The translations under genes were made by a program, and so were the position numbers. Below, piece by piece: positions 5,694 to 7,982 of a DNA stretch of 24,371 bases. Origin of the DNA: Clostridia bacterium. GTDB taxonomy: Bacteria; Bacillota; Clostridia; Christensenellales; Aristaeellaceae. Under the pieces are notes generated by a model, which worked only from the letters and a program-made list of their open reading frames with translations, did no database searches and had not been told where the DNA came from. The stretch covers positions 1 to 24,371 of the forward strand of contig JAZRWA010000081.1 of NCBI GenBank assembly GCA_045599485.1. The letters run 5' to 3'. Positions within the stretch are counted from its first letter, which is position 1. Each line of letters starts with the position of its first letter.

Positions 5694-7982
5694 TTAATCG
5701 CGGCCGAACGCGCGGCAAAGCGCGGCAGACAGCTTCTTTCCTGGCGGCAGCAGGGCCTGCAGCGCCTCAAAGCAGCGGATGGCGGATTGCACCTCGGAGG
5801 GCTGCACCGGCACGCGCCCGTAGCGGTGACGGCTGACGGCAGCGGCGACCGCGGTCAGGTCGGGACCAAGCGCCGCTTCGACCCGGCGGGCAAACTCCAG
5901 GGGCGTTTCTCCGCCCTGCGGCGTGAAGCCCAGACGGCGGCAGCTGCCGAGGATGGCAGTGTAGAGCAGCATCAGTGCGCCTTCGGCGGTCTTTTGCCGG
6001 CGGGCCCGGGCGACCGGGTCGGTGTCACGGATGCGCCTGGCCAAAAGCAGAAGCAGCAGGATCAGCAAAAGCAGCAGCAGCCACAACAGCCCCGATGGCC
6101 GGTCGGGACCGGAAGGGTCATCCTTCGGCGGCTCGGGCTCGGGCGAGGGCGACGGCTCTCCCTGCGGCTCGGGCGAGGGGGTGGGTGTGTTTTCGGGTAC
6201 CTGCTGCGGCTCGGGTGTGGGCGTTTGCTGCGGTTCCGCGGAAGGCGAGGGCGAGGGCGACGGGGAAGGGGAGGGGGACGGTGAGGGCGCGGCAGGGTTC
6301 TCGGGCGGACGGTTGTTTCCGCGGCTCTCCTCATGCCCGGGTGTGGCGTCAAAGACGACCCAGCCCACGCCGTTCAGATACACCTCGGTCCACGCGTGGG
6401 CGTTTTCGCCGGTCAGCACGCCGTTTTCCGCGCTGTAATAGCCCTCCACATAGCGGGCGGGCAGCCCTGCCATGCGGCAAAGCACCGTCATGGCGGAGGC
6501 AAAGTATGTGCAGTAGCCCTTCTGCTAACGCAGCAGGAACCAGGCGACAAAATCGGCATCGGGCAGCGGGGTGGACACCTCCAGGGAATAAGGATAGGTC
6601 GTGCGCAGATAGTCGCGCAGTGCCACTGCCTTTTGCCACGGCCCCGCACAGCCCGCCGTGACCCGGTTGGCGATGGCGTAAATTTCGGGCTGCATGTGCG
6701 CCGGAATGGACAGGTAGTGGGCGCGCACCTCGGCATAATGCTCATCCTGCGCGCCGGCGTTGAGCTGCGCCAGCTCCTCCACCGCGGCGTCATCGGAGGT
6801 GAGCAGGACGGCGGTCAGGGTGTAGGTGTCGCCCGCCTTGAGGTCGCGGGTCAGGAACAGCTCGGTGCCTGTGTTGAAATAGGCGATCATATCCTCCCCG
6901 AGCGACAGCGAGCGCAGGCGCTGCGGCACAAACAGCGTGCTGGTACGGTCGGCCAGCATCGTGACGGTCAGCGTGTTTTCGGGAAGCGTGCCCTCCATGG
7001 GCAGGCTCATGTCAAACAGGCTGCTGCGAAGATTGCGGGAGGTGGGCAGGTGCCAGGCGTAGCGGGCGGCGGACAGCGAATCATACCACATCTGCCCGGT
7101 GTAACGGTCCATCACCGTGCCGCGCAGATAGATGGCGCTTTCGGCACCGCTGACGGACAGGACAGCGCCCTCGGCAGGCTGCGGCCGCCCGCCCAGATGC
7201 TCGCCGGTCAGCGGCATCCAACCCTCGCTTTCCAGTGAAAAGCGTGTGCGCTCGCCCTGAAAATAAAAGTAATCCGACAGCTTTTTGACCAGCTCATCCG
7301 CCTTGTCGGACAGCTGATCGTTTTTGGTGCCCTCGGGCGGGGCGATCAGACAGGCGCAGAGGAGCAGCAGCACCGCCGCTGGCAAAAGCCGCAGCAGGTG
7401 CCGGGCCGTGGCGCGCTCTTTGGGATGGCTGAACGCTGCCGCCAGCAGCAGACCGGGCAGGGCGGGCAGAAGCAGAAGCAGCGATTCGTGCAGACCGGTC
7501 ACCCACGCCACCGCCGCCGAAAGACCGGTCAGCAGGCAGGGCAGAAAGAAGGATTCGGCACTGATGAACAGCAGGGATACGGCGGACAAAAACACGGCAA
7601 ACAGCACGGTCAGCGGCGCGGCGTATACCAGCACCATGCCGCCGTCGCCATGCACAAGCAGCGCCAGCGCGCGGAGGGCACTGACCAGCATGGGGTACAG
7701 CCCGCGCCTCTGCAGCCCCATCAACACCTCATAACCAAGGAAGAGAACGGGCGGAACAAAGCGCAGCAGGGCGATGCGGCGCGGCAGCGCCTGGCTGAGA
7801 TAAAACAGCAGCGTCAGCGCGTGAAAGATCGTGACCGAAAGGACAAACAGCCTTTGCTGATGAAATCCGGGCAGCGACAGCAGCGGCAGACCAACGCCCG
7901 TGGTGATGAGCAGCGAAGCGAGCAGGACGGTCAATTGCGCACCGCGCAGGCGGCGAAGAACGGCGTCAAGCAGGCGTGACAT
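5694..7982 (-). CDS. Transglutaminase-like membrane protein (TgpA-like, with a DUF4129-like tail) carrying one in-frame TAG at 6525-6527
   Basis: ORFs 7982..6525 and 6491..5694 are in the same frame, separated only by TAG. The joined reading gives [42 protein letters not shown]...AHAWTEVYL...VVFDATPG, which is the Cys-His-Asp transglutaminase core. There is a multi-TM N-terminus, a PS/PE-rich linker and a Leu-rich TM. GGAGG lies 8 nt before ATG 7982. Stop is TAA. Confidence 0.8.

What the first reader, a model, noticed from the sequence alone, without database searches (positions are those of the whole stretch)
5694..7982. Transglutaminase gene split by TAG immediately before its catalytic cysteine
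The coding strand reads ...GAC TTT GTC GCC TGG TTC CTG CTG CGT TAG CAG AAG GGC TAC TGC ACA TAC TTT GCC TCC GCC ATG... This translates as [24 protein letters not shown].

The GYC cysteine of the Cys-His-Asp triad lies between the TAG (6525-6527) and the first ATG of the downstream ORF (6491). Under the standard code, neither ORF encodes a complete core. The upstream ORF has no triad residues, and the downstream ORF has only His (AHAWTEV) and Asp (VFDATP).

No RBS precedes ATG 6491. Reading through TAG restores a 762-residue TgpA-like protein.
Basis: partly seen in the sequence, partly recalled or inferred. Interest (0 to 1): 0.7.

Follow-up and report, generated by a model that had tools for sequence, protein, structure and literature searches.

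The report
Bacterial lineage that translates TAG
The TAG that seems to cut this transglutaminase gene in two is one of many in-frame TAGs in an uncultured gut or rumen Clostridia lineage that appears to translate TAG (probably as glutamate) and never uses it as a stop, a genetic-code change not reported for bacteria.

Summary
A TAG at 6525-6527 (minus strand) interrupts a 762-codon TgpA-like gene five codons before its catalytic Cys.

It is not an isolated lesion. All five TAGs that lie in a coding frame in this 24-kb contig are followed by homologous coding sequence: moxR-223, DUF58-368, tgpA-486, MscS-254 and DNA methylase-374. The 23 genes end in TGA (13) or TAA (10), never TAG.

Related metagenomic contigs show the same pattern:
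- The sister species (L085-L088) has its own in-frame TAGs in a response regulator, a histidine kinase and tgpA codon 237.
- L078 has them in PriA and an aldo-keto reductase.

The sister tgpA TAG is shared by strains that differ by 6% in DNA. These strains have no indels, and dN/dS downstream of the TAG is 0.13.

In total there are 10 in-frame TAGs and no TAG terminators in about 52 genes, where about 13% is expected. More distant relatives use TAG as an ordinary stop.

Sisters carry GAG, GAA and GAG/GAA at the three operon sites. A rough column log-odds favours Glu.

Best reading: lineage-wide reassignment of TAG to a sense codon. The tRNA, RF1 status and Pyl genes could not be examined.

The parts
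5694..7982 (-). tgpA: TgpA-like membrane transglutaminase or cysteine protease, 762 codons when TAG is read as sense. It has N-terminal TM helices, a Transglut_core domain (C491/H529/D545), a Pro/Ser-rich linker, a TM helix and DUF4129. It ends in TAA.
6525..6527 (-). In-frame TAG, tgpA codon 486 (the finding). Sisters have GAG (L086) or GAA (L088). Glu is present in all of the ~40 closest homologues displayed.
7966..9105 (-). DUF58 gene, 379 codons when read through to TGA 7966-7968. It overlaps the tgpA start by 17 nt, exactly as in the sister species (380 aa).
8002..8004 (-). In-frame TAG, DUF58 codon 368. It looks like a terminator under the standard code. Sisters have GAA (Glu) here and continue to the same TGA.
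   Evidence: (alignment A1)
9102..10055 (-). moxR: AAA_3 + AAA_lid_2 ATPase, 317 codons when TAG is read as sense. This matches the 317-aa intact orthologues in L080, L086 and L087. It ends in TGA, which overlaps the DUF58 ATG.
9387..9389 (-). In-frame TAG, moxR codon 223, between the AAA+ core and the lid domain. Sisters have GAG. The closest homologues (67-76% identity) have Glu, with one Asp among them.
   Evidence: (A2)
15001..15837 (+). MscS-type channel gene, 278 codons when read through to TAA 15835-15837.
   Evidence: The Pfam MS_channel_3rd domain (3-85/88) appears only in the read-through protein. PDB 3T9N aligns across the TAG.
15760..15762 (+). In-frame TAG, MscS codon 254. Gene calls in the sister species stop at the same residue, so the codon is shared by both species.
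20765..22033 (-). N4/N6 DNA methyltransferase gene, read through to TAA 20765-20767. It has 409 codons from ATG 21994. Homologues suggest the upstream ATG 22033 is the true start.
   Evidence: (A4)
20873..20875 (-). In-frame TAG, methyltransferase codon 374. Homologues of 404-421 aa align through the 35 residues that follow it, which include the conserved DVLGRR motif.

Best explanation
**Main claim.** In this uncultured Clostridia lineage, TAG is translated as an amino acid and is not a stop codon. The lineage comprises the window's species, a sister species at about 85-97% DNA identity, and at least the organism of contig L078.

**Consequence for the finding.** tgpA is an intact 762-codon gene, and the codon five positions before its catalytic Cys specifies a residue. 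The same holds for moxR and DUF58 in the same operon, and for the MscS and DNA methylase genes elsewhere on the contig.

**Shown:**
- Every TAG in a coding frame is followed by homologous, constrained coding sequence.
- TAG never terminates a gene here.
- One TAG has persisted through within-species divergence under purifying selection.
- TAG positions differ between species, so such codons are being gained.

**Inferred:**
- A tRNA with anticodon CUA decodes TAG.
- RF1 is lost or weakened.
- RF2 handles the TAA and TGA terminators.

**Most likely meaning.** Glutamate, at about 0.55 (my estimate). The sister species and close homologues carry GAR/Glu at the sites that can be polarised.
For: **1. 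All five coding-frame TAGs in the window continue into homologous sequence.**
- moxR gains its AAA_lid_2 domain.
- tgpA gains its catalytic core.
- DUF58 runs on to the same TGA as in the sisters.
- MscS gains its C-terminal domain.
- The methylase gains 35 residues that align with homologues of 404-421 aa.

**2. Terminators.** In the window these are TGA 13, TAA 10, TAG 0.

**3. Related contigs.**
- L085: a response regulator and a histidine kinase each have an internal TAG and are full-length when joined.
- L086/L088: tgpA has a TAG at codon 237.
- L078: PriA has an internal TAG, and an aldo-keto reductase gains 11 bits when read through.
- That makes 10 TAG sites and no TAG terminators in about 52 genes. 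The baseline is 16/124 and 4/27 in more distant relatives. My arithmetic gives 0.87^52, about 7e-4.

**4. Persistence under selection.**
- The TAG at tgpA-237 is in L086 and L088, and the five other cluster variants (independent assemblies) also end at residue 236.
- L086 and L088 differ at 137 of 2295 nt, with no indels.
- dN/dS after the TAG is 0.13.

**5. No relaxation in the window lineage.**
- dN/dS against the sister: moxR 0.07, DUF58 0.19, tgpA 0.25.
- tgpA is 0.26 before and 0.24 after the TAG.
- No invariant column is violated in MoxR (0/44) or TgpA (0/48).

**6. Limit of the clade.** L079 and L080 end genes on ordinary TAGs.

**7. Identity of the residue.**
- Sister codons are GAG, GAA and GAG/GAA at the three operon sites.
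- Column log-odds over 8 sites: E +5.8, next best D -2.9, Q -5.1.
Against: - No tRNA gene is present in any available sequence of the clade.
- RF1 (prfA) and pylTSBCD could not be examined, because only about 50 kb of the clade is in hand.
- There is no protein-level evidence.
- The sample is about 52 genes.
- TAG is rare (about 0.7 per 1000 codons). A mixed state, with a suppressor tRNA competing with RF1, cannot be told apart from full reassignment.
- The Glu assignment rests on few sites. GAG is also the commonest one-step mutational neighbour of TAG in this genome.
- One site (sister tgpA-237) is Ser in the window and N/D in near homologues.
- PDB homologues show Q at the PriA site, M/L at the MscS site and Q/A/K at the kinase site.
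- L078 is linked to the window only by an 87%-identical GDH.
Confidence: 0.85

Rival explanations
1. TAG is a sense codon in this lineage, but it encodes pyrrolysine (a bacterial counterpart of the archaeal 'Code 34') or glutamine (as in TAG-recoded phages), not glutamate.
For: - Genome-wide TAG=Pyl is documented in archaea (bioRxiv 10.1101/2024.09.30.615893). From my own knowledge, Pyl cassettes occur in some Firmicutes.
- TAG=Gln is the usual meaning in recoded gut phages.
- Several TAG columns are variable in homologues: the methylase in A4, the kinase and MscS. E. coli PriA has Q at the PriA site.
- GAG is the commonest mutational neighbour of TAG here. Three of four sites coming from GAR has a probability of about 0.06 with no Glu meaning at all (my calculation from the codon counts).
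Against: - Sisters carry GAG/GAA at all three polarisable sites. None carries CAG/CAA, which would be the neutral transition route to TAG if it meant Gln.
- The log-odds favour E over Q by about 11 nats.
- No methylamine methyltransferase or pyl gene appears in about 50 kb of sequence, though that is a weak test.
- The Code 34 preprint states that in bacteria Pyl is reported only in a few enzymes and that TAG is otherwise a stop.
Confidence: 0.28
2. TAG is still mainly a stop codon. These genes are kept at low expression by inefficient read-through, either near-cognate or through a weak suppressor. This is the 'in-frame stops under purifying selection' pattern described for bacteria.
For: - Belinky et al. 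2021 (PMC7918605) report conserved in-frame stops with dN/dS below 1 in bacterial genes and propose read-through that lowers expression.
- TAG is rare in this clade, at about 0.7 per 1000 codons.
Against: - No TAG terminators in about 52 genes, against about 13% expected. That is not predicted if TAG still terminates efficiently.
- The TAGs sit in genes needed at normal levels, including PriA (from my own knowledge generally important for replication restart), a two-component pair and MscS.
- The operon would need three successive read-throughs.
- No shared sequence context and no RNA structure after the TAGs (z = -1.1 and +0.4).
Confidence: 0.1
3. The moxR-DUF58-tgpA operon is a recently inactivated set of pseudogenes. 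Independent nonsense mutations arose from a G:C->T:A-biased mutation spectrum. This was my working hypothesis until.
For: - Two to three TAGs cluster in one operon.
- All the changes are G:C->T:A transversions.
- 'Both TAG' has a probability of about 0.4 and 'both GAG->TAG' about 0.02 under simple mutation models.
- PGAP-style annotation would call these pseudogenes.
Against: - The same pattern occurs in unrelated genes on the same contig (MscS, methylase) and in PriA, a kinase, a regulator and a reductase in relatives.
- The sister tgpA TAG is fixed across diverged strains, with dN/dS 0.13 downstream and no indels.
- There are no frameshifts anywhere, and invariant residues are kept.
- dN/dS is far below 1 both before and after the TAGs.
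Confidence: 0.03
4. The TAGs are sequencing, assembly or consensus artefacts, for example oxidative G->T damage or errors in a low-coverage MAG.
For: - The window is a single MAG contig.
- G->T / C->A is a known library-damage signature (from my own knowledge).
- Some unrelated long-read contigs (L083, L084) do show pervasive artefactual gene fragmentation.
Against: - L086 and L088, from separate runs, both carry the TAG at tgpA-237, and all six cluster variants (Logan and ENA assemblies) end at residue 236.
- The MscS stop-like codon is at the same residue in sister gene calls.
- No gene on the window has a frameshift or a TAA/TGA lesion.
- Only TAG is affected, and always in frame.
Confidence: 0.01

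Closest known systems
Archaeal 'Genetic Code 34': all TAG codons read as pyrrolysine (Kivenson et al.; bioRxiv 10.1101/2024.09.30.615893)
   Same: - A prokaryotic, genome-wide conversion of TAG from stop to sense.
- In-frame TAGs are scattered through ordinary conserved genes.
- Apparent 'TAG-terminated' genes extend to a downstream TAA or TGA.
- It is hard to see by coding density under table 11 (noted in the gTranslate preprint).
   Different: - That code is archaeal and tied to Pyl machinery and methylamine methanogenesis. Its authors say it is not observed in bacteria.
- Here the organism is a Clostridia bacterium, no Pyl genes are in view, and the aligned residues point to Glu.
TAG-to-Gln recoded gut bacteriophages (translation table 15; crAss-like, Lak and others)
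   Same: In-frame TAGs are decoded through a suppressor tRNA(CUA) in gut and rumen ecosystems. Genes look split under table 11.
   Different: - Those are phage genomes, often recoded only in late genes, and they infect standard-code hosts.
- This contig is chromosomal: MreB, SepF, DivIVA, iPGM and GDH here, and PriA in L078.
- The sites are Glu, not Gln, in the sisters.
Bacterial UGA reassignments (table 4, UGA=Trp; table 25, UGA=Gly)
   Same: A lineage-restricted stop-to-sense reassignment in bacteria, recognised by in-frame stops at conserved positions and by the absence of that codon as a terminator.
   Different: - A different codon and a different release factor (RF2 versus RF1).
- Shulgina & Eddy state that all known bacterial changes reassign UGA (PMC8629427).
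- Parks et al. 2026 discuss bacterial stop-codon reassignment only for UGA (PMC13462651).
- Those lineages tend to be low-GC with reduced genomes. This one is about 60% GC.
Eukaryotic UAR=Glu codes (peritrich ciliates, table 30; Blastocrithidia nonstop)
   Same: The same proposed meaning (Glu) for UAG, via a tRNA-Glu with a mutated anticodon (PMC12153298 abstract).
   Different: Those are nuclear eukaryotic codes in which UAA is reassigned together with UAG. Here TAA remains a frequent terminator (10 of 23 genes).
Conserved in-frame stop codons with read-through in bacteria (Belinky et al. 2021, PMC7918605)
   Same: In-frame stops are kept under purifying selection (dN/dS well below 1), so they are not pseudogenes.
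   Different: - That work describes scattered cases in standard-code genomes, interpreted as a way of lowering expression.
- Here only TAG is involved, it affects every TAG seen, and TAG terminators are absent. That fits a code change rather than gene-specific leakiness.

Membership tests
TgpA-like transglutaminase / cysteine protease (Pfam Transglut_core PF01841) | A complete Transglut_core domain with the Cys-His-Asp triad in one polypeptide | tested here: met
   Met only when TAG is read as sense. Pfam matches 2-108/108 at E = 2.9e-28. The triad C491/H529/D545 aligns with PDB 6G49. Under the standard code neither ORF has the full triad.
TgpA-like transglutaminase / cysteine protease (Pfam Transglut_core PF01841) | Family architecture and operon: N-terminal TM region, C-terminal DUF4129, and a position downstream of MoxR ATPase and DUF58 genes | tested here: met
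   DUF4129 and a weak TgpA_N match. The moxR-DUF58-tgpA order with overlapping stops and starts is as in L080, L086 and L087.
Lineage-wide stop-codon reassignment (TAG to sense) | In-frame TAGs in several unrelated conserved genes, with homology continuing past each one | tested here: met
   5 of 5 in the window and 10 of 10 across the clade.
Lineage-wide stop-codon reassignment (TAG to sense) | The reassigned codon is absent as a genuine terminator | tested here: met
   0 of 23 genes in the window and 0 of about 52 in the clade. The baseline is 16/124 and 4/27 in more distant relatives.
Lineage-wide stop-codon reassignment (TAG to sense) | The in-frame codon is conserved among diverged genomes, with purifying selection downstream | tested here: met
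   tgpA-237 TAG is seen in L086 and L088, and all six cluster variants end at residue 236. There are no indels and dN/dS is 0.13 after the TAG. The MscS-254 stop-like codon is shared by both species.
Lineage-wide stop-codon reassignment (TAG to sense) | A cognate tRNA with anticodon CUA | not testable with these tools
   No tRNA gene is on the window or on L078 and L085-L088.
Lineage-wide stop-codon reassignment (TAG to sense) | Loss or alteration of release factor 1 (prfA) | not testable with these tools
Pyrrolysine decoding system | pylT/pylS/pylBCD genes and TAG in methylamine methyltransferase genes | not testable with these tools
   None is seen among the Pfam annotations of the window or in the gene lists of the sister contigs. 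Coverage is too small to exclude them.
Pseudogene (decaying operon) | Mixed lesion types (frameshifts, several stop types), dN/dS approaching 1, and loss of invariant residues | tested here: not met
   Only TAG is affected and there are no frameshifts. dN/dS is 0.07-0.25 and equal before and after the TAG. Invariant-column violations are 0/44 and 0/48.
TAG-recoded bacteriophage or prophage (table 15) | Phage structural or replication genes, with recoding confined to a phage genome | tested here: not met
   The window carries housekeeping genes (iPGM, GDH, MreB, SepF, DivIVA, MscS) and no phage family.

The most novel reading that the evidence does not exclude
This Clostridia clade has a complete new bacterial genetic code in which UAG means glutamate. 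A tRNA-Glu-derived (or Gln-derived, Glu-charged) tRNA(CUA) decodes it, and RF1 has been lost. This would be the first natural RF1-free, amber-reassigned bacterium and a new translation table.
Probability: 0.45. Interest if true: 0.95.

Novelty: new variant of a known kind. Interest (0 to 1): 0.88.

Why it matters
**What is new.** The 2021-2026 literature I could search treats UGA as the only stop codon reassigned in bacteria (PMC8629427; PMC13462651 and the gTranslate preprint discuss no other). Genome-wide UAG reassignment is reported only in archaea (Pyl), phages and eukaryotes. A free-living, about 60% GC gut or rumen Clostridia lineage that translates UAG would add a fourth bacterial code.

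**What it would make testable:**
- How a stop codon is captured. TAG is still rare, its positions differ between sister species, and relatives with the standard code are close by.
- Whether RF1 can be lost in nature.

**Practical consequences:**
- It would offer a natural amber-suppressing chassis or tRNA/synthetase pair.
- It would bear on how TAG-recoded gut phages relate to their hosts.
- MAG pipelines that run table 11 will split or 'pseudogenise' real genes in this clade. Here that applies to tgpA, moxR, PriA, a kinase and a regulator. They will also truncate others (DUF58, MscS, the methylase, the AKR).

Tried and rejected
**1. Pseudogene or decay reading.** This was my working hypothesis up. 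I tested it with invariant-column violations, relative divergence and nonsense-mutation spectra. None showed decay. Sister loci then contradicted it.

**2. Read-through signals.** Folding 90-120 nt around and after both operon TAGs gave z-scores of -1.3 to +0.4. The ten sites share no context.

**3. Defence-system or 'phage suppressor sensor' idea.** PADLOC gave only two marginal hits for MoxR (E about 4e-4 and 9e-4) and none for DUF58 or TgpA. The idea became unnecessary once TAGs turned up in unrelated genes.

**4. Direct searches for sisters with TgpA.** These returned relatives at 52% identity or less:
- the protein database;
- GTDB genomes;
- JGI metagenomes;
- a short query around the TAG.

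Sisters were reached only indirectly, through the >=90% clusters of flanking genes.

**5. GDH neighbours.** L079 is not syntenic and was uninformative for the operon. L078 later proved to carry its own in-frame TAGs.

**6. Short TgpA fragments on long contigs.** P0278 and P0286 looked like recurrent splits. They come from error-rich long-read assemblies in which SecA and MoxR are also shredded.

**7. Other recoding mechanisms.**
- Same-frame adjacent ORFs joined by TAA or TGA (SepF/DivIVA, Cys-rich/methylase, thioesterase/acetyltransferase) are separate genes.
- TadA-type A-to-I editing and DGR mutagenesis were considered and dismissed from the sequence context (own reasoning).
- No tRNA and no Rfam family is in the window.
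Full report
**1. The observation**

On the minus strand, the frame from ATG 7982 to TAA 5694 has 763 codons and one internal stop, a TAG at 6527-6525.

- The Cys codon is at 6512-6510.
- The first downstream start codon of any kind is ATG 6491.
- No Shine-Dalgarno motif precedes that ATG.

Pfam finds only the second half of Transglut_core plus DUF4129 in the downstream piece, and nothing in the upstream piece. 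The joined protein matches Transglut_core 2-108/108, DUF4129 and weakly TgpA_N. It aligns across the TAG with P. aeruginosa TgpA, PDB 6G49.

All 120 listed homologues are single proteins, nearly all 740-800 aa long. In their alignment the TAG column is Glu in all of the ~40 closest displayed.

**2. The first surprise, and the wrong turn**

The gene is the third of a moxR-DUF58-tgpA operon. The moxR gene also has an in-frame TAG, at 9387-9389. Reading through it gives a 317-aa AAA_3 + AAA_lid_2 ATPase. That is the exact length of intact orthologues. Its column is Glu in nearly all the closest homologues (one has Asp).

Direct searches with TgpA found nothing closer than 52% identity. I therefore first treated the operon as recently inactivated. 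Tests for decay were negative:

| Test | Result |
|---|---|
| Invariant columns violated, MoxR | 0 of 44 |
| Invariant columns violated, TgpA | 0 of 48 |
| Excess divergence of TgpA relative to MoxR | none |
| Frameshifts | none |
| 'Both TAG' under simple mutation models | p about 0.4 |
| 'Both from GAG' under the same models | p about 0.02 |

There is also no RNA structure after the TAGs, no tRNA or Rfam family in the window, and only two marginal defence-family hits for MoxR.

**3. Sister genomes change the picture**

The window is essentially a whole 24,372-bp NCBI MAG contig. The >=90% clusters of its flanking genes led to sister contigs:

| Locus | DNA identity to the window | Window span |
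|---|---|---|
| L085 | 93-97.6% | 1-5215 |
| L086 | 84.6% | 5329-11995 |
| L087 | 87.8% | 7449-13780 |
| L088 | not measured | a full tgpA from another run |

At the window's TAG sites the sisters read:

- GAG at the moxR TAG (A2).
- GAG (L086) or GAA (L088) at the tgpA TAG.
- GAA at the TAG that appears to terminate the window's DUF58 gene (A1).

The sisters' DUF58 runs 12 codons further, to a TGA that overlaps the tgpA start by 17 nt. The window has the same 11 codons and the same TGA, at 7966-7968. So all three operon genes carry a TAG where the sisters have Glu.

The sister species has its own in-frame TAG at tgpA codon 237, where the window has TCG. Evidence on that TAG:

- It is present in L086 and L088. 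The five other protein variants of the cluster, from independent Logan and ENA assemblies, all end at the same residue 236.
- L086 and L088 differ at 137 of 2295 nt (dS 0.17).
- They have no indels in 765 codons.
- dN/dS is 0.13 over the 529 codons after the TAG.

The part downstream of an old TAG is therefore under purifying selection.

Between the window and L086, dN/dS is 0.07 for moxR, 0.19 for DUF58 and 0.25 for tgpA. For tgpA it is 0.26 before and 0.24 after the window's TAG.

**4. The pattern is not confined to the operon**

| Sequence | Gene and TAG codon | What follows the TAG |
|---|---|---|
| L085 | OmpR-type response regulator, 128 | Full-length protein when joined |
| L085 | Histidine kinase, 219 | Full-length protein when joined |
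| Window | MscS, 254 (apparent terminator) | 24 codons that complete the MS_channel_3rd domain and align with T. tengcongensis MscS (kpXddwrverelrerlf / TQPMQKWAVERDIRYRV) |
| Window | DNA methylase, 374 (apparent terminator) | 35 codons that align with the C-termini of 404-421-aa homologues, including a conserved DVLGRR motif |
| L078 | PriA, 483 | GTQKVE-TAG-ELRRLFP, aligning across the TAG with E. coli PriA |
| L078 | Aldo-keto reductase, 285 | A 24-codon extension that adds 11 bits to the Pfam match |

Gene calls for MscS in the sister species stop at the same residue. L078 carries a GDH 87% identical to the window's.

Tally:

- 10 TAG sites, all internal to conserved ORFs.
- Terminators in the window: TGA 13, TAA 10, TAG 0.
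- No TAG terminators in about 52 genes across the window, L085 and L078.
- In more distant relatives, TAG ends 16 of 124 moxR/DUF58/tgpA genes and 4 of 27 genes on L079 and L080, with no plausible extension.
- With a 13% baseline, zero in 52 has a probability of about 7e-4 (my arithmetic).

**5. Explanation**

The simplest account is that TAG is a sense codon in this clade. This covers:

- in-frame TAGs in unrelated and important genes;
- the absence of TAG terminators;
- persistence of TAGs under purifying selection;
- different TAG positions in sister species;
- ordinary TAG stops just outside the clade.

The tgpA gene is therefore intact.

The mechanism is inferred, not shown: a tRNA(CUA), with loss or weakening of RF1. 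No tRNA gene lies on any available sequence, and whole genomes are out of reach here.

For the meaning of the codon, Glu is favoured:

- Sisters have GAR at the three sites that can be polarised.
- A rough Codetta-like log-odds over eight sites gives E +5.8 nats, D -2.9 and Q -5.1.

This rests on few sites, and GAG is the commonest mutational neighbour of TAG here. Pyl cannot be scored this way. I put Glu at about 0.55, and Pyl, Gln or another residue together at about 0.3. A mixed stop/sense state cannot be excluded.

**6. What is known**

- Shulgina & Eddy state that all known bacterial code changes reassign UGA (PMC8629427).
- Parks et al. (Aug 2026) discuss bacterial stop-codon reassignment only for UGA (PMC13462651).
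- The gTranslate preprint names tables 4, 11 and 25 as the most prevalent prokaryotic codes (its discussion concerns bacteria and archaea) and calls UAG=Pyl in archaea the first archaeal genome-wide stop reassignment.
- The Code 34 preprint says that in bacteria TAG is otherwise read as a stop, and that the code is not observed in bacteria.
- Belinky et al. described conserved in-frame stops in bacteria, but as gene-specific read-through.
- My searches found no report of a bacterial UAG reassignment or of natural RF1 loss.

This is a new variant of a known kind, stop-codon reassignment, with a codon-and-domain combination not described before.

**7. Caveats**

- Only about 50 kb of the clade was examined.
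- There is no tRNA, RF1 or proteomic evidence.
- L078's relation to the window rests on one protein.
- The held library is not the whole literature.

The decisive checks are listed under next steps.

Noticed in passing
window 4025-4250 (-), 17080-17325 (+); partial copies at 15860-15921, 16293-16352 and 17016-17075; also L085 4985-5210, 6105-6340, 11595-11900: A roughly 230-nt intergenic element built from three GC-rich hairpins is repeated several times on the contig and on the sister contig, and the stems show compensatory differences. It has no Rfam match. It could be a REP/MITE-like or terminator-type repeat family.
   Followed up: partly
window 16001-17000 (gene 16343-17002, arms 16293-16352 / 17016-17075): The DUF3267 (putative zincin peptidase) gene sits in the only low-GC stretch of the window (0.51 against about 0.60). 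It is flanked by 60-nt inverted arms that are 78% complementary and derive from the repeat element above. It may be an inserted cassette.
   Followed up: no
window ~6120-6330 (-): TgpA has a long Pro/Ser/Thr/Glu low-complexity linker (SPSPSPSP...). In other assemblies, gene calls for TgpA homologues break by frameshift exactly in this kind of linker (P0263, P0273, P0286).
   Followed up: partly
L085 3103-3105 and 4047-4049; L086 1955-1957; L088 753-755; L078 8178-8180 and 20384-20386: These are further in-frame TAGs in relatives: a response regulator, a histidine kinase, tgpA codon 237, PriA and an aldo-keto reductase. They show that TAG positions differ between closely related species.
   Followed up: yes
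window 1-5215 versus 5329-13780 (L085 versus L086/L087): Sister contigs are 93-97.6% identical over the left part of the window but only 85-88% over the operon and its right flank. L085 and L087 come from the same ENA sample. This could mean uneven divergence, recombination, or two strains in that sample.
   Followed up: no
window 19169-19504 (-): A stand-alone Trans_reg_C (winged-helix) protein of about 111 aa with no receiver domain lies next to mreB.
   Followed up: no
L083 and L084 (ENA ERZ21564551 / ERZ21549426 long-read contigs): Gene calls are shredded on these contigs: SecA is in four pieces on L083, and MoxR (L083), DUF58 (L084) and TgpA (both) are split. This indicates indel-rich assemblies. 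They mimic 'split TgpA' but are artefacts and are unrelated to the TAG pattern.
   Followed up: yes
window 22040-22558 (-) and 20765-22033 (-): A Cys-rich protein of about 172 aa with no Pfam match lies immediately upstream of the N4/N6 DNA methyltransferase, in the same frame and separated by TGA. No restriction enzyme gene was recognised nearby, so the methylase may be an orphan.
   Followed up: no
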